A DNA stretch of 64,000 nt from Escherichia coli (lineage in GTDB: Bacteria; Pseudomonadota; Gammaproteobacteria; Enterobacterales; Enterobacteriaceae): NCBI RefSeq assembly GCF_041248615.1, contig NZ_CP158426.1. One strand, 5' to 3'. Within the stretch, counting starts at the first letter, position 1, and each line of letters starts with the position of its first letter. The notes below the pieces were generated by a model. That model was not told the DNA's origin. It ran no database searches and was given only the letters and a program-made list of their open reading frames with translations. The position numbers and the translations under genes were made by a program. Below are positions 14,509-19,861 of this stretch, piece by piece.

Positions 14509-15612
14509 TCATGCACCCACTAAATGCAGGCAAACATCCGGGCCTACATGACGTATCTCTTTGAATTTAAATTGGAGGGCGTCAGCTAATTTCTCAAGCC
14601 CTGGTAGTATGCATAATCCACGGGCGTCGCTGCCTAATAGTTTAGGTGCGATATAGACAATCAGCTCATCGACTAAACCCGCCTGCAGCAATGCGCCAGC
14701 GAGCGTTGGCCCCGCTTCCACCCAGATGCTGTTAATTTGCTGTTTACCCAGTTGCATCATTAGTACAACCAGATCCAGATGACCTTTATGCTCTGGAATC
14801 AGCAAGGTACGCACCGTTTCCGGCCACTCACGAGAATCTTCCTGCGTACGCGCGAACCAGGTTTCGCCGGGCTGCTGCACAATGCGATGTTCCGGCGTCA
14901 CGCGATTTTGGCTATCAATCACAATACGTACCGGCTGGCGGAGATTGTGTTGCGGGTAGAGCCCCTGAGTTTGTTCATCCAGTTCAGACCAACGCACCGT
15001 TAAGGCCGGATCATCCGCCAGCACCGTGGCACTGCTGGTTAAAATGGCATGACTTTGTGCGCGCAGTCGTTGTACATCGAGTCGCGCCTGAGGCGAAGTG
15101 ATCCACTGGCTTTCGCCACTCTCCATCGCCGTGCGACCATCAAGCGATGCGCCAAGTTTTAACTGAATATAAGGAAAGCCGGTGCGCATCCGCTTGAGAA
15201 AGCCTTTATTCAATTGCTCGGCTTCACTCATCATCAGGCCGTGGCTGACGTCAATACCAGCCTGTTGCAGGCGATATAGCCCTCGCCCAGCTACCTGCGG
15301 GTTAGGATCTTGCATCGAGGCAACCACGCGCGCCACGCCCGCAGCAATTAATGCATCACAACACGGTGGCGTACGACCATGATGGCTACAGGGTTCGAGT
15401 GTGACATACGCCGTTGCGCCTTTGGCTTTTTCGCCAGCCATGCGCAACGCGTGTACCTCGGCATGCGGTTCACCCGCTCGTTGGTGGTAACCTTCACCGA
15501 CAATTTCGCCATCTTTGACAATGACGCACCCGACATTCGGGTTGGGATGCGTGGTAAAACGTCCTCGTTGCGCCAGCTTTAGCGCCCGCGCCATGTAATA
15601 CTCGTCCTGCAC
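14509..15612 (-). CDS. ribD: bifunctional riboflavin biosynthesis deaminase/reductase
   Basis: 367-aa product; CMP/dCMP deaminase zinc motifs ([18 protein letters not shown]). Confidence 0.9.
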
Positions 15613-15615
15613 GGC

Positions 15616-16101
<486 letters not shown>

Positions 16102-16344
16102 TTACCCTGAACTGACGATACAACAAAGGCGCAACGCTTTTGAGATAAAGGATCGATGCTTTCACTGCTTTTACCCTCTACCATTAGGCTAATTGCGACG
16201 AGAAAGGGACGACCTATGAATACTAACGTTTTTCGACTGCTCCTGCTGGGAAGCCTGTTCAGCCTTAGCGCCTGTGTGCAGCAAAGCGAAGTGCGACAGA
16301 TGAAACACAGCGTCAGCACGCTGAACCAGGAGATGACGCAACTC

Positions 16345-18092
16345 ATTGACATCCTCCACGCCCTGAAGGACGTGGATCCCTGCTACGTTCAGGCTGTCGC
16401 CTGAATCATTTCGGTGGGTTCCTGCTTCAACGGGCGGCCTGACTGCACCATCCCTCCACAGGCAAGAACGGCGTGCCCCGCCGCTAAAATGTTACGAGCG
16501 CCATTTACATCGGCGTTCGCTGTATATCCACATACCTGGCATCTGAATTTACTTTGTGACAGGCGATTTTCTTTCGCTGTATGACCACAGCACGTGCAAC
16601 GCTGGCTTGTGTACGCTGGCGAAACAGCAAGCACCTGACCGCCACGCCAGAGCTGCTTGTACTCAAGCTGGCGGCGCATTTCATACCAGCCCTGATCCAG
16701 TATCGAACGGTTTAAACCTGATTTTGCCCGGACATTGCGCCCCGGCTGGCTGACCGTACCCGCTGCTGACTTTGACATGTTGCTGACCTTCAAATCCTCA
16801 ATGACTATCATTGCGTGGTTTTTGCTGACGGTCGTTGTGACTTTGTGAAGGTAGTCCCTGCGGATATTTGCGATACGGGAATGCAGTCGCTGTATTTTGC
16901 GTTTCTGCTTCTGCCAGTTGTTGCTGAATTTGACCTTGCGGCTTAACTGTCGCTGAAGTCTCGCCAGCGTCTTCTGGTTTTTCTGAAAACTGTTTACAGG
17001 CTCAAAGACTGTGCCATCTGACAGCGTGGCGAGTTTAGCCACGCCAGCATCCAGCCCGACCATTGATGCTGAAGGGTGAACCGGAGTTGATACTTCACTT
17101 TCTGTCTGAATACTGATGTGCCACTTACCGCAGGACTGGCTGACCGTGACATTTTTCACAACACCCGTGACCTGACGGCTATTCCGGTAGCGCATCCAGC
17201 CCAGTTTCGGCAGAAAAATACGGCTGTTTTCCTGATCGAGCTTAACGCCCTGCGGGTAGCGGAATGCATCATTCTGTCCCCGCTTTTTGAATCGGGGAAA
17301 AGCAGCCCGCTTCTGGAAGAAGTTTTTGTAAGCCCGCTCAAGGTCTTTCAGTGACTGTTGCAATGGCTGTGACGGGGCATCTTTAAGCCATTGCGTTTCA
17401 GTGGCATTTTTCCACTCAACCAGCCAGGAAGCCATTTTCCCGTAAGGGATGTATTTATTACCGGCCTCATGATTCTCATTCTGAAGCGCCAGAGCACGAT
17501 TGAAAACGAAACGACATGCGCCTGCGAAGCGCCTCATTTCACACTCCTGTTGACCACCTGGTCTTAACTGGAATTTAAATGCCTGTAATCGTTTCACAGG
17601 TCAAATGATACTTTGGTCTATGAAAAAAGAAACCGATATCCGGCGTGGAAGGCATTGTGTTTTCCTGATGCATGTTCACCTGGTCTTTGTCACCAAATAC
17701 CGACGCCAGATTTTTGACCATGACGCGACAGAAAAACTACGCACTTACTTTTCAAATGTATGTGCTGATTTTGAAGCTGAACTGGTTGAAATGGATGGCG
17801 AACCAGATCACGTCCATTTGTTAATTAACTATCCTCCCAAACTGGCGATATCCAGTCTGGTAAACAGCCTCAAAGGCGTATCGGGTAGGTGACTGCGACG
17901 AGATCGACCAGATATTGCAGTCAGGTATTACTACAAAGGCGTTTTGTGGAGTCCTGGCTATTTTGCCAGTAGCTGCGGAGGTGCGCCAATATCCGTCATC
18001 CGCCAATACATTGAACAACAGCAAACACCTGGTCAGGTGGAAAACCGCGCCTTATATCCCCGCCCTGAAGGACGGGGTTTTACGGCGCACCG
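16345..18092 (-). mobile_element. IS200/IS605-family insertion sequence (divergent tnpA/tnpB), boundaries approximate
   Basis: HuH (Y1) transposase gene plus TnpB gene; similar subterminal hairpins near both ends (16356-16375 CCACG-CCCTGAAGGA-CGTGG; 18058-18077 CCCCG-CCCTGAAGGA-CGGGG); no terminal inverted repeats. Confidence 0.75.
16389..17597 (-). CDS. tnpB: TnpB (IS200/IS605 OrfB; RuvC-like RNA-guided nuclease family)
   Basis: 402-aa ORF; N-terminus ...AFKFQLRPG...RFVFNRAL typical of TnpB; C-terminal CxxC...CxxC zinc finger (CTCCGH...CQVCGY) and RuvC-III-like NGARNI. Confidence 0.85.
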
Positions 18093-18132
18093 GATAAAGA
18101 AACAGTCAAAATCACTCAGCAAAACAGGCTGA
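17605..18132 (+). pseudogene. tnpA: IS200-type HuH transposase TnpA with in-frame TGA at 17890-17892
   Basis: N-terminal part has HuH motif (DHVHLLI); same frame continues after the TGA with the C-terminal tyrosine region LWSPGYFASSCGGAPISVIRQYIEQQ; frame reads past the element end into yajI. Confidence 0.7.
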
Positions 18133-18800
18133 ATGCAAAATCCAGCAGTGGGGTTTACCTTCTGCCTGGAGCGAAAACACCAGCAAGACTGGAAAGCCAG
18201 ATCGGTACTTTACGTATGTCGCTGGTGAATATTACGCCTGATACAGATGGCACCACCCTGACGCTACGTATTCAGGGCGAGTCGAATGATCCCTTGCCCG
18301 CATTCAGCGGAACTGTTGAATATGGGCAAATTCAGGGAACAATAGACAACTTTCAGGAAATCAATGTGCAGAATCAATTGATTAACGCCCCTGCCAGCGT
18401 CCTCGCCCCCAGCGATGTTGATATTCCGTTACAGTTAAAGGGTATTTCTGTGGATCAGTTAGGCTTTGTACGTATCCACGACATTCAACCTGTTATGCAG
18501 TAAACGTTTCGCGGGGCGTTTTGTGCGTCCCGCAACATCTTTCCCCGTCATTTTGTTACTCTGCTTACATCACCCAGATTGATAGTAAAAGTTTGCAACA
18601 AGGGTGAAAGTCAGTACAATCCCCGCCCGAATGTGTGTAAACGTGAACGCAATCGATTACGTAAATGATAGAACTGTGAAACGAAACATATTTTTGTGAG
18701 CAATGATTTTTATAATAGGCTCCTCTGTATACGAAATATTTAGAAACGCAATTTGCGCCTTTTTCACTCCCGCAAGGGATTTTCAAACAGTGGCATACAT

Positions 18801-19685
18801 ATGAAAAAAACATTACTGGCAGCCGGTGCGGTACTGGCGCTCTCTTCGTCTTTTACTGTCAACGCAGCTGAAAACGACAAACCGCAGTATCTTTCCGACT
18901 GGTGGCACCAGAGCGTTAACGTTGTCGGAAGCTATCACACCCGTTTCGGACCGCAGATCCGCAACGATACCTACCTTGAGTACGAAGCATTCGCTAAAAA
19001 AGACTGGTTCGACTTCTATGGTTATGCGGATGCGCCGGTATTCTTCGGCGGTAACTCCGATGCAAAAGGTATCTGGAACCACGGTTCTCCGCTGTTTATG
19101 GAAATCGAACCACGTTTCTCCATCGACAAGCTGACCAATACTGACCTTAGCTTTGGTCCGTTCAAAGAGTGGTACTTCGCGAACAACTACATTTACGACA
19201 TGGGTCGTAATAAAGATGGTCGCCAGAGCACCTGGTACATGGGTCTGGGTACCGATATCGATACTGGCCTGCCGATGAGCCTGTCCATGAACGTCTATGC
19301 GAAATACCAGTGGCAGAACTATGGCGCAGCGAATGAAAACGAGTGGGACGGTTACCGTTTCAAAATTAAATACTTTGTGCCGATTACCGATCTGTGGGGC
19401 GGTCAGCTGAGCTACATCGGCTTCACCAACTTCGACTGGGGTTCCGATTTAGGGGATGACAGCGGTAATGCAATCAACGGTATTAAGACCCGTACCAATA
19501 ACTCCATCGCTTCCAGCCATATTCTGGCTCTGAACTACGATCACTGGCACTACTCTGTCGTAGCTCGTTACTGGCACGACGGTGGTCAGTGGAACGACGA
19601 TGCAGAACTGAACTTCGGCAACGGCAACTTCAACGTTCGCTCTACCGGCTGGGGTGGTTACCTGGTAGTAGGTTACAACTTCTGA
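18801..19685 (+). CDS. tsx: nucleoside-specific outer membrane channel Tsx
   Basis: 294-aa product from ATG 18801; signal peptide [23 protein letters not shown]-terminal aromatic beta-barrel end. Confidence 0.9.
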
Positions 19686-19692
19686 TGAATGA

Positions 19693-19724
19693 AATGCCGG
19701 ATCTTGTATCCGGCATTTCAGTTT
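19693..19724 (+). terminator. rho-independent terminator after tsx
   Basis: stem GCCGGAT/ATCCGGC then TTTCAGTTT. Confidence 0.65.
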
Positions 19725-19729
19725 GTTAA

Positions 19730-19850
<121 letters not shown>

Positions 19851-19861
19851 TTGCGTTTTAA

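What the first reader, a model, noticed from the sequence alone, without database searches (positions are those of the whole stretch)
17605..18132. tnpA is inactivated by a single in-frame TGA, not a frameshift
Seen in sequence: the two ORF-track pieces 17605-17892 and 17944-18132 are in the same reading frame. The HuH-motif N-terminal half (…DHVHLLI…SLKGVSGR) is followed by TGA at 17890-17892, and the frame then continues with the conserved tyrosine-bearing C-terminal region (LWSPGYFASSCGGAPISVIRQYIEQQ). A one-base change (for example TGG or CGA to TGA) would explain it. The element is therefore probably immobile unless TnpA is supplied in trans.
Basis: seen in the sequence. Interest (0 to 1): 0.4.

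Follow-up and report, generated by a model that had tools for sequence, protein, structure and literature searches.

The report
Nonsense-inactivated IS609 transposase gene in yajI
The transposase gene (tnpA) of an IS609 insertion sequence inside the E. coli yajI gene is cut short by a real one-base nonsense mutation (Leu TTA to TGA), the same allele already reported in E. coli K-12 and present in about half of complete E. coli genomes, so the finding is correct but ordinary.

Summary
Window 17605-18132 is one reading frame broken only by TGA at 17890-17892. The HUH motif lies before the stop and the catalytic-tyrosine helix after it.

The gene is tnpA of a 1748-bp IS609 copy (IS200/IS605 family, window 16346-18093) inserted in yajI. 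It sits beside an intact divergent tnpB/insQ.

The ancestral codon is TTA (Leu96), not TGG or CGA. Leu is present in 13 of 13 intact homologues, and TTA is found in about 65% of E. coli copies.

The gene's own stop (TAG, codon 144) is CAG here, so the ORF runs over the left-end hairpin and 39 nt into yajI DNA.

The TGA is not a sequencing error. It occurs at 3376 places in 2728 of 5426 complete E. coli genomes, including K-12. There the stop codon and the lack of transposition are published.

At the yajI site itself, 201 genomes carry TGA and 149 carry TTA. Sister yajI copies carry other lesions: TAA76, H71N in the HUH motif, and a 1-bp deletion.

The two chromosomes identical to the window hold no other IS609 copy. 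The element is therefore most likely immobile on its own, persisting as a tnpB unit. This is already known and of low interest.

The parts
16346..18093 (-). Complete IS609 copy (IS200/IS605 family), 1748 bp, inserted in yajI. There is no target-site duplication. The tnpB-sense strand is the window minus strand.
   Evidence: Comparison with the empty yajI site of Nissle 1917 (L010) gives the junctions CTCA|TTGACATCC... and ...GCGCACCGG|ATAAAG. The copy is 97.9-99.9% identical over its full length to IS609 copies at 8 other chromosomal sites. PGAP names such copies 'IS200/IS605-like element IS609 family transposase'.
16346..16388 (-). Right end (RE) with a subterminal hairpin at 16355-16375. On the tnpB-sense strand the element ends ...GTCAA.
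   Evidence: DNA fold of -10.7 kcal/mol, z = -2.15. The 21-nt hairpin sequence is repeated at the other end with 90% identity (family D2). A sub-threshold Rfam HgcC hit at 16333-16456(-) overlaps it.
16389..17597 (-). tnpB / insQ, an intact 402-aa RNA-guided endonuclease gene.
   Evidence: Open reading frame. Pfam OrfB_IS605, Cas12f1-like_TNB and HTH_OrfB_IS605 all match. It aligns with the solved ISDra2 TnpB structures 8EXA/8H1J at E = 2.7e-56 over residues 3-376. PGAP annotates it as intact. pN/pS is 0.34 among 20 sampled copies.
17605..17889 (+). tnpA pseudogene, codons 1-95: the N-terminal half, with the HUH motif (H69-V-H71) at 17809-17817.
   Evidence: H69, V70 and H71 are invariant. Matches solved IS200/IS605 TnpA structures 2F4F, 2VJV and 2XM3 at E = 1e-17 to 1e-20.
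17890..17892 (+). The premature stop TGA at codon 96. The ancestral codon is TTA (Leu), and the T-to-G change is at 17891. The next base is C (UGA-C).
   Evidence: TTA is found at this position in copies L005, L006, L007, L009 and L015-L019. Leu is present in 13/13 intact homologues.
17893..18033 (+). tnpA codons 97-143, no longer translated. This part holds the catalytic Tyr135 (RQYIEQQ; TAC at 18007-18009).
   Evidence: Y135 is invariant in alignment A1. It aligns to the C-terminal Tyr helix of solved TnpA proteins.
18034..18036 (+). Lost natural stop codon: CAG here, TAG in canonical IS609 copies.
   Evidence: L011, L015, L016, L020 and L023 have TAG. Homologues from Salmonella, Photorhabdus, Proteus and others end at ...QQQTPG/S, at 138-146 aa. 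1175 genomes carry a TTA+TAG copy and 427 a TGA+TAG copy.
18037..18093 (-). Left end (LE) with a subterminal hairpin at 18057-18077. In this copy it is also the read-through tail of the tnpA frame.
   Evidence: DNA fold of -14.6 kcal/mol, z = -2.37. Direct repeat of the RE hairpin.
18094..18097 (-). Target tetranucleotide TTAT (ATAA on the + strand) that abuts the LE.
   Evidence: The empty-site comparison. The same ATAA follows the IS end in all 21 full-length sampled copies, at 9 sites. BLAST matches at other sites run 4-9 bases past the IS end.
16216..16345 (+). yajI 5' fragment (codons 1-43), cut off by the insertion.
   Evidence: PGAP describes it as 'DUF3251 domain-containing protein, missing C-terminus'.
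18094..18503 (+). yajI 3' fragment. Its first 39 nt are read in the tnpA frame up to TGA at 18130-18132.

Best explanation
Window 17605-18132 is the tnpA gene of an IS609 insertion sequence (window 16346-18093) that sits inside the lipoprotein gene yajI of an E. coli chromosome. tnpA encodes the HUH/Y1 single-strand DNA transposase of the IS200/IS605 family.

Shown: a single T-to-G transversion at 17891 changed the conserved Leu96 codon TTA to TGA. Translation therefore ends after 95 residues. The product keeps the HUH metal-binding motif but lacks the last 48 residues, including the C-terminal helix with the catalytic Tyr135.

Inferred: that product cannot cleave or join the element's ends. 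This rests on established knowledge of IS608 and ISDra2 TnpA, in which the tyrosine forms the covalent 5'-phosphotyrosine intermediate.

Shown: the cis-acting ends (LE and RE hairpins, TTAT target) and the neighbouring tnpB/insQ gene are intact.

Inferred: the element can no longer move by itself. It could still be mobilised by IS609 TnpA supplied in trans, and it persists as a tnpB (plus presumed guide RNA) unit.

Shown: the allele is old and common. It is the same one as in the single K-12 IS609 copy and occurs in half of complete E. coli genomes. At the yajI site it arose after insertion, because the closest yajI copies still have TTA96 and carry a different nonsense codon.

Inferred: its presence at six or more insertion sites, together with haplotype blocks shared between sites, is best explained by sequence exchange (ectopic gene conversion or recombination) among IS609 copies.
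For: - In-frame TGA, with the HUH motif upstream and the Tyr helix downstream.
- Full-length Y1_Tnp match when the stop is masked.
- Homology to solved IS200/IS605 TnpA structures.
- Leu96 in 13/13 intact homologues, which continue to 138-146 aa; H69, H71 and Y135 invariant.
- TTA in other E. coli copies.
- Allele-specific 55-mer searches: TGA at 3376 places in 2728 genomes, TTA at 6359 places in 3896 genomes.
- At the yajI site, TGA in 201 genomes and TTA in 149. At the ydcL site, 1693 versus 1558.
- PGAP annotates 'internal stop' for the identical copy and for the K-12 copy.
[quoted passage not shown] There were 0 IS609 insertions among 758 IS insertions in mutation-accumulation lines (PMC5009759).
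- Element boundaries, no target duplication, TTAT target. Hairpins at both ends.
- tnpB intact and homologous to ISDra2 TnpB.
- Chromosomes 100% identical to the window's IS (NZ_OW967178.1, NZ_LT599825.1) hold only one IS609 place.
- The nearest yajI copies (L017, L018) differ within tnpA from the window only at 17891 and 17832 (L017 also at 17696). They carry TTA96 plus TAA76 instead.
- Haplotype blocks shared between sites.
- tnpA pN/pS of 1.02 against 0.34 for tnpB.
Against: - No experiment on this particular copy. Loss of activity is inferred from the missing Tyr helix and from the published K-12 result, which was reported as 'data not shown'.
- The stop is UGA followed by C. From my own knowledge this is a leaky termination context in E. 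coli, so a trace of full-length protein (probably Trp96) cannot be excluded.
- Plasmids of the source strain were not examined for an intact IS609 tnpA.
- The allele counts rest on a megablast seeding trick. It was validated only on known cases: K-12 and BL21 appear in the TGA list and O157:H7 in the TTA list, and 17 fetched loci (8 TGA, 9 TTA; one of the TTA loci a truncated remnant) agree.
- Exchange between copies is inferred from 21 sampled copies, not from a population-wide analysis.
Confidence: 0.9

Rival explanations
1. Attenuated rather than dead. The UGA-C stop is read through at low frequency, probably inserting Trp. This would give a small amount of full-length TnpA(L96W), so the TGA allele would be a low-activity transposase. 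That could help explain why the allele is found at many insertion sites.
For: - The base after the stop is C. Leakiness of UGA-C in E. coli is from my own knowledge and was not tested here.
- The TGA allele sits at 6 or more different insertion sites.
- All other invariant residues of the protein are intact in this copy.
Against: - The stop is not conserved. Homologues have Leu and 65% of E. coli copies have TTA.
- TGA copies go on to collect frameshifts (L003, L012, L023), and tnpA evolves neutrally (pN/pS 1.02). A gene still in use would not be expected to do this.
- K-12, whose only copy has this allele, showed no IS609 transposition.
- Both alleles occur at the same orthologous sites, and haplotype blocks are shared between sites. 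Exchange between copies accounts for this without any need for transposition of the TGA allele.
Confidence: 0.05
2. The TGA at yajI is an independent, recurrent point mutation at a hotspot rather than an allele imported from another copy. The T-to-G change converts the imperfect inverted repeat TTACTGC...GCAGTCA into a perfect 7-bp one. That is the pattern left by quasi-palindrome template-switch mutagenesis.
For: - The derived allele makes a perfect 7-bp inverted repeat, 17890-17896 with 17917-17923, around a 20-nt loop. Only 0.7-2.6% of all possible substitutions in the IS would do as much.
- The window differs within tnpA from its closest TTA-bearing yajI relative (L018) only at 17832 and 17891, and no flanking marker was co-transferred.
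- The genomes identical to the window have no second IS609 copy that could act as a donor today.
Against: - The stem is short and the test was made after seeing the result.
- At other sites the TGA travels with linked variants. The 1-bp deletion at 17692 plus 17783G is shared by a yajI copy (L003) and a gltX copy (L023). The combination 17953G plus 18034T is shared by yeaR and yedK copies. This indicates exchange of tracts, not repeated point mutation.
- All four TGA/TTA x TAG/CAG combinations exist.
Confidence: 0.25
3. Artefact: the TGA is a sequencing or assembly error in this window.
For: None beyond the general possibility.
Against: The identical allele is present in 2728 independently assembled complete genomes, including K-12, BL21 and 201 genomes with the yajI insertion. 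It was also reported from K-12 in 2010.
Confidence: 0.005
4. TnpA of this element normally ends at codon 95, and the downstream frame is unrelated.
For: None.
Against: The downstream frame matches positions up to 121/121 of Pfam Y1_Tnp. It is conserved residue by residue in 13 intact homologues of 138-224 aa and in solved TnpA structures.
Confidence: 0.005

Closest known systems
IS609 of E. coli K-12 (tnpA pseudogene 'yncK' plus insQ/ydcM, between ydcO and ydcL)
   Same: Same element (98.3% identity over 1748 bp) and the same TGA at codon 96. It also has the same lost natural stop (CAG), an intact tnpB, and the same TTAT target. It is published as carrying a stop codon in the transposase gene and as not transposing (PMC2891674, PMC5009759).
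   Different: The insertion site differs: yajI here, against the ydcO-ydcL intergenic region in K-12. About 1.7% of bases differ. The read-through tail differs (…HRIKKQSKSLSKTG here, …HRIKSAI in K-12) because it is encoded by flanking DNA.
IS608 (Helicobacter pylori) and ISDra2 (Deinococcus radiodurans), the mechanistic models of the IS200/IS605 family
   Same: All have a Y1 HUH transposase with a C-terminal catalytic tyrosine helix, a TnpB partner, and subterminal hairpins instead of terminal inverted repeats. All insert 3' of a tetranucleotide without target duplication.
   Different: tnpA and tnpB are divergent here, with start codons 7 bp apart. From my own knowledge this is the IS605 layout, and IS608 has the two genes in tandem. 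The target is TTAT here, against TTAC for IS608 (my own knowledge). The transposase here is a pseudogene.
Canonical intact IS609-type TnpA (143 aa; e.g. P0013 from E. coli, P0017/P0019 from Salmonella)
   Same: 87-95% identical protein. The same start (MILWS...) and the same HUH and Tyr positions.
   Different: These have Leu96 and end at ...QQQTPG with a stop codon. The window copy has TGA96 and CAG in place of that stop.
tnpB-only or tnpA-decayed IS200/IS605 elements (TnpB retained without a working TnpA)
   Same: tnpB is intact and under purifying selection (pN/pS 0.34), while tnpA evolves neutrally (1.02) and collects diverse lesions across copies.
   Different: Here tnpA is still full length and recognisable, disabled by one base. 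TnpB or guide-RNA activity was not tested for this element.

Membership tests
IS200/IS605 family insertion sequence (IS609) | Encodes a Y1 HUH transposase (TnpA, Pfam PF01797) | tested here: met
   PF01797 at E = 3.3e-42, covering 1-121 of 121 with the stop masked. Solved TnpA homologues match at E = 1e-17 to 1e-20. The gene is a pseudogene in this copy.
IS200/IS605 family insertion sequence (IS609) | Accessory tnpB (OrfB_IS605 / RuvC-type RNA-guided nuclease) next to tnpA | tested here: met
   PF01385, PF07282 and PF12323 match. ISDra2 TnpB structures match at E = 2.7e-56.
IS200/IS605 family insertion sequence (IS609) | Subterminal hairpins at both ends, no terminal inverted repeats | tested here: met
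   The hairpins at 16355-16375 and 18057-18077 are direct repeats of each other. Both fold on the tnpB-sense strand, with z = -2.2 and -2.4.
IS200/IS605 family insertion sequence (IS609) | Insertion next to a specific tetranucleotide without target-site duplication | tested here: met
   Comparing empty and filled sites shows a clean 1748-bp insertion with no duplication. ATAA (TTAT on the tnpB-sense strand) abuts the left end at all 9 sites sampled.
IS200/IS605 family insertion sequence (IS609) | Near-identity to elements named IS609 | tested here: met
   98-99.9% identical to copies that PGAP labels 'IS200/IS605-like element IS609 family transposase' and to the K-12 copy that the literature calls IS609.
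Pseudogene by nonsense mutation | Intact homologues carry a sense codon at the position and continue with conserved, functionally required sequence | tested here: met
   Leu in 13/13 intact homologues. Y135 and 40-odd downstream residues are conserved. TTA is the majority allele in E. coli.
Pseudogene by nonsense mutation | Loss of activity shown experimentally | not testable with these tools
   Only indirect evidence: the K-12 copy with the same allele does not transpose (PMC2891674, data not shown; PMC5009759, 0 events).
Programmed stop-codon recoding (read-through or selenocysteine) | The in-frame stop is conserved among homologues | tested here: not met
   No homologue outside E. coli has a stop here. 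Within E. coli the site is dimorphic, and TGA copies decay further.
Programmed stop-codon recoding (read-through or selenocysteine) | A recoding signal (SECIS or a read-through-promoting structure) downstream of the stop | tested here: inconclusive
   The Rfam scan of 15500-19000 gave no hit in tnpA. A 7-bp stem with a 20-nt loop begins at the stop, but it is weak and there is no evidence that it functions.

The most novel reading that the evidence does not exclude
The TGA96 allele might not be simple decay. It could be a selectively or mechanistically favoured state of IS609. One version is an attenuated, leaky UGA-C transposase that keeps transposition very rare. Another is a mutation that recurs at a quasi-palindrome hotspot. 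Either could explain why one particular nonsense allele accounts for about a third of all IS609 copies and coexists with TTA at each of several orthologous insertion sites.
Probability: 0.07. Interest if true: 0.45.

Novelty: already known. Interest (0 to 1): 0.12.

Why it matters
For this finding alone it matters little. It documents one more copy of a well-known defective insertion sequence and corrects its annotation details: the ancestral codon is TTA, the natural stop codon is lost, and the true element boundaries are 16346-18093.

It is useful to annotators. The 175-codon reading frame is not a gene product, its last 13 codons are yajI DNA, and yajI itself is split by the insertion.

In a wider view, the survey gives a compact example of three things: transposase decay while tnpB is kept, one nonsense allele shared between paralogous IS copies at several sites, and independent knock-outs of tnpA within a single orthologous insertion. 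These bear on how TnpB-carrying elements persist after losing their transposase, but they fit current views rather than challenge them.

Tried and rejected
- Sequencing error: rejected by the allele counts.
- TnpA ending naturally at codon 95: rejected by Pfam coverage and homologue alignment.
- Ancestral TGG or CGA: rejected, because every sense copy has TTA.
- The PGAP note 'missing C-terminus' as evidence of a truncated element: rejected.
- A yajI insertion made by an already dead copy: unlikely. The closest yajI copies have TTA96 and differ from the window's tnpA essentially only at 17832 and 17891.
- Rfam scan for a described RNA in or near the stop: only two sub-threshold hits, both at the tnpB 3' end/RE and none in tnpA.
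- Paper search for 'yncK': unusable, because the term matches unrelated words. The search 'insQ' + 'TnpB' listed four papers; none was opened, and none looked from its title or abstract to be about IS609 activity in E. coli.
- The first dN/dS script failed on a 6-nt insertion in L013 and was rerun.
- Not attempted: structure prediction, metagenome or GTDB scans, and the large protein-representative search. The question was settled by close relatives.
Full report
**1. The observation**

Reading window 17545-18192 in one frame gives MILWSMKKETDIRRGRHCVFLMHVHLVFVTKYRR...EPDHVHLLINYPPKLAISSLVNSLKGVSGR*LRRDRPDIAVRYYYKGVLWSPGYFASSCGGAPISVIRQYIEQQQTPGQVENRALYPRPEGRGFTAHRIKKQSKSLSKTG*. The only interruption is TGA at 17890-17892. 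With the stop masked, the protein matches Pfam Y1_Tnp (PF01797) over the whole model, 1-121 of 121, at E = 3.3e-42. It also matches solved IS200/IS605 transposases (Sulfolobus 2F4F, IS608 2VJV/2A6M, ISDra2 2XM3) at E = 1e-17 to 1e-20.

**2. What the thing is**

The gene belongs to a complete IS609 element.
- **Boundaries.** Comparison with an uninterrupted yajI gene (Nissle 1917, L010) places the element at window 16346-18093, 1748 bp. The junctions are ...GCAACTCA|TTGACATCC... and ...GCGCACCGG|ATAAAGAAAC...
- **Insertion signature.** There is no target duplication. On the tnpB-sense strand the left end abuts TTAT.
- **Ends.** Both ends carry the same 21-nt hairpin-forming sequence as a direct repeat, at 16355-16375 and 18057-18077 (90% identical). 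Each folds on the tnpB-sense strand.
- **tnpB.** Divergent from tnpA, with start codons only 7 bp apart, lies an intact 402-aa tnpB/insQ at 16389-17597 on the minus strand. It has all three TnpB Pfam domains and is homologous to the ISDra2 TnpB structures at E = 2.7e-56.
- **Host gene.** The insertion splits yajI into fragments at 16216-16345 and 18094-18503. RefSeq annotates an essentially identical locus in just this way, with tnpA flagged 'internal stop'.

All tested defining features of the IS200/IS605 family are met.

**3. The ancestral codon**

Other E. coli copies of the same element have TTA at this position. These include copies at the yeaR, gltX, yfaY, ytfB-yjfZ, yidH and ybcM sites, and also at yajI. 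In an alignment with 13 intact homologues from E. coli, Salmonella, Photorhabdus, Morganella, Proteus, Klebsiella, Yersinia, Xenorhabdus and Hamiltonella, the residue is Leu in every one. H69, H71 (the HUH motif) and Y135 are invariant. The lesion is therefore TTA to TGA, a T-to-G transversion at 17891.

**4.

Intact homologues are 138-146 aa long and end at ...QQQTPG/S. Some E. coli IS609 copies have TAG at codon 144 (L011, L015, L016, L020, L023). In the window this codon, 18034-18036, is CAG. The frame therefore stays open over the left-end hairpin, which encodes the ALYPRPEGRGFTAHR tail. It then crosses the element boundary at 18093 and stops in yajI DNA at 18130-18132. The tail differs at every insertion site, and this is why PGAP writes 'missing C-terminus'. 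Whether the extension harms a TTA-bearing TnpA is unknown. It is common: 1175 genomes have a TTA+TAG copy, against 3896 genomes with any TTA copy.

**5. Is the stop real, and how common is it?**

I used 55-base queries with the variable base at position 28. Every 28-base megablast seed must then include that base, so only copies with the queried allele are found.
- TGA: 3376 places in 2728 of 5426 complete E. coli genomes.
- TTA: 6359 places in 3896 genomes.

The method behaves correctly on known cases. K-12 and BL21 appear in the TGA list and O157:H7 in the TTA list, and all fetched loci agree.

I also used chimeric queries, joining an allele-specific 55-mer to a site-specific flank. These count only copies that carry a given allele at a given site.

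| Insertion site | Genomes with TGA | Genomes with TTA |
|---|---|---|
| yajI | 201 | 149 |
| ydcO-ydcL (K-12 site) | 1693 | 1558 |

A sequencing error is excluded.

**6. What is already published**

The single IS609 of K-12 carries the same TGA. Umenhoffer et al. [quoted passage not shown] Lee et al. 2016 (PMC5009759) saw 0 IS609 insertions among 758 new IS insertions in mutation-accumulation lines. The finding is therefore already known in substance. The window holds the same allele in a copy at another site.

**7. Consequence**

From established knowledge of IS608 and ISDra2 TnpA, the C-terminal helix tyrosine makes the covalent link to DNA. A 95-residue product lacking Y135 and the last 48 residues cannot catalyse cleavage or strand transfer.

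The ends and the target-abutting sequence are unchanged relative to other copies, so mobilisation in trans remains possible in principle. The two chromosomes that are 100% identical to the window over the IS and over 5.5 kb around it (NZ_OW967178.1, NZ_LT599825.1) contain only this one IS609 place. Plasmids were not checked.

**8. Origin of the allele at yajI, and the wider pattern**

The closest yajI copies (strains 144 and TUM1886; L017, L018) have TTA96 but carry a different nonsense codon, TAT76 to TAA at 17832. Within tnpA, L018 differs from the window only at 17832 and 17891. Their common ancestor at yajI was intact at both positions, so the TGA arose at yajI after insertion.

Other yajI copies show further independent lesions:
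- H71N in the HUH motif (L019).
- A 1-bp deletion at 17692 on top of the TGA (L003, L012).

The TGA occurs at six or more insertion sites: yajI, ydcL, yedK, ytfB-yjfZ, yeaR and gltX. Linked variants travel with it between sites:
- The 17692 deletion plus 17783G is shared by a yajI copy (L003) and a gltX copy (L023).
- 17953G plus 18034T is shared by yeaR and yedK copies.
- All four TGA/TTA x TAG/CAG combinations exist.

I read this as sequence exchange between paralogous copies, by ectopic gene conversion or recombination, with the ancient and frequent ydcL allele as a likely reservoir.

A weaker alternative is a mutational hotspot. The T-to-G change perfects a 7-bp inverted repeat, 17890-17896 with 17917-17923, and only 0.7-2.6% of possible substitutions would do as much. 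The stem is short, however, and the test was made after the fact.

**9. Selection**

In 20 sampled copies, tnpB has pN/pS = 0.34. For tnpA, in the 13 copies without indels, pN/pS is 1.02. The sample is small, non-independent and enriched for TGA copies. Even so, it agrees with tnpA decaying neutrally while tnpB is kept. A sub-threshold Rfam HgcC hit covers the tnpB 3' end and the right end (16333-16456 minus strand, E = 0.013), where a TnpB guide RNA would be expected. This is a lead, not a result.

**10. Rivals**

- **Leaky read-through.** UGA is followed by C, so a trace of full-length protein cannot be excluded. It is disfavoured by the lack of conservation of the stop, the further decay of TGA copies, neutral evolution of tnpA, and the K-12 data.
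- **Programmed recoding.** This fails the conservation test.
- **Artefact, or natural termination at codon 95.** Both are refuted.

**11. Verdict**

It is an ordinary, already described pseudogene allele of IS609. Interest is low. The modestly interesting by-product is that one nonsense allele is shared among paralogous IS copies while tnpA has been knocked out independently several times at a single orthologous insertion.

Noticed in passing
window 18034-18036 (and 18037-18132): The natural tnpA stop codon (TAG in canonical IS609; homologues end ...QQQTPG) is CAG here. The frame therefore runs over the left-end hairpin, across the IS boundary at 18093 and 39 nt into yajI. The C-terminal tail differs at every insertion site. 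This explains PGAP's 'missing C-terminus' flag.
   Followed up: yes
window 17891; loci L004, L011, L013, L020, L023 and others: The TGA96/TTA96 dimorphism is present at each of several orthologous insertion sites: yajI 201/149 genomes, ydcL 1693/1558, and also the yeaR, gltX and ytfB-yjfZ sites. Linked variants are shared between sites, which points to sequence exchange (gene conversion) among IS609 copies.
   Followed up: partly
window 17832, 17815, 17692 (seen in L017/L018, L019, L003/L012): Other strains with the same yajI insertion have different tnpA lesions: TAT76 to TAA, H71N in the HUH motif, and a 1-bp deletion. These are several independent knock-outs of tnpA within one orthologous insertion.
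   Followed up: partly
window 17890-17896 and 17917-17923: The T-to-G change converts TTACTGC...GCAGTCA into a perfect 7-bp inverted repeat with a 20-nt loop. Only 0.7-2.6% of all possible substitutions in the IS would do as much. This is a weak, after-the-fact hint of a template-switch hotspot.
   Followed up: partly
window 16333-16456, minus strand: A sub-threshold Rfam hit to HgcC family RNA (23.8 bits, E = 0.013; gathering score 50) covers the 3' end of tnpB and the right end, where a TnpB guide (omega) RNA would be expected. A weaker RAGATH-18 hit lies at 16419-16462.
   Followed up: no
window 16389-17597 versus 17605-18033: Among sampled IS609 copies, tnpB shows pN/pS 0.34 (20 copies) and tnpA 1.02 (13 copies without indels). 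Synonymous diversity is about three times lower in tnpA (0.012 against 0.035). This is unexplained and might reflect homogenisation or overlapping signals.
   Followed up: partly
window 17597-17605: The tnpB start (GTG, minus strand, 17597) and the tnpA start (ATG, plus strand, 17605) are only 7 bp apart. Each gene's promoter must therefore lie inside the other gene's coding sequence.
   Followed up: no
window 16216-16345 and 18094-18503: The lipoprotein gene yajI is split by the insertion. About 350 of 5426 complete E. coli genomes carry this insertion (201 + 149).
   Followed up: partly
window 19717-19855: A 139-bp block downstream of tsx is absent in strain TUM14771 (L019), so this is a variable intergenic repeat cluster. 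Its sequence ('gccggatgcggcgtaaacgccttatccggcctac') recalls REP elements, but this was not tested. Other strains have an IS200C copy or a ParDE toxin-antitoxin pair between yajD and secF (L002, L003).
   Followed up: no
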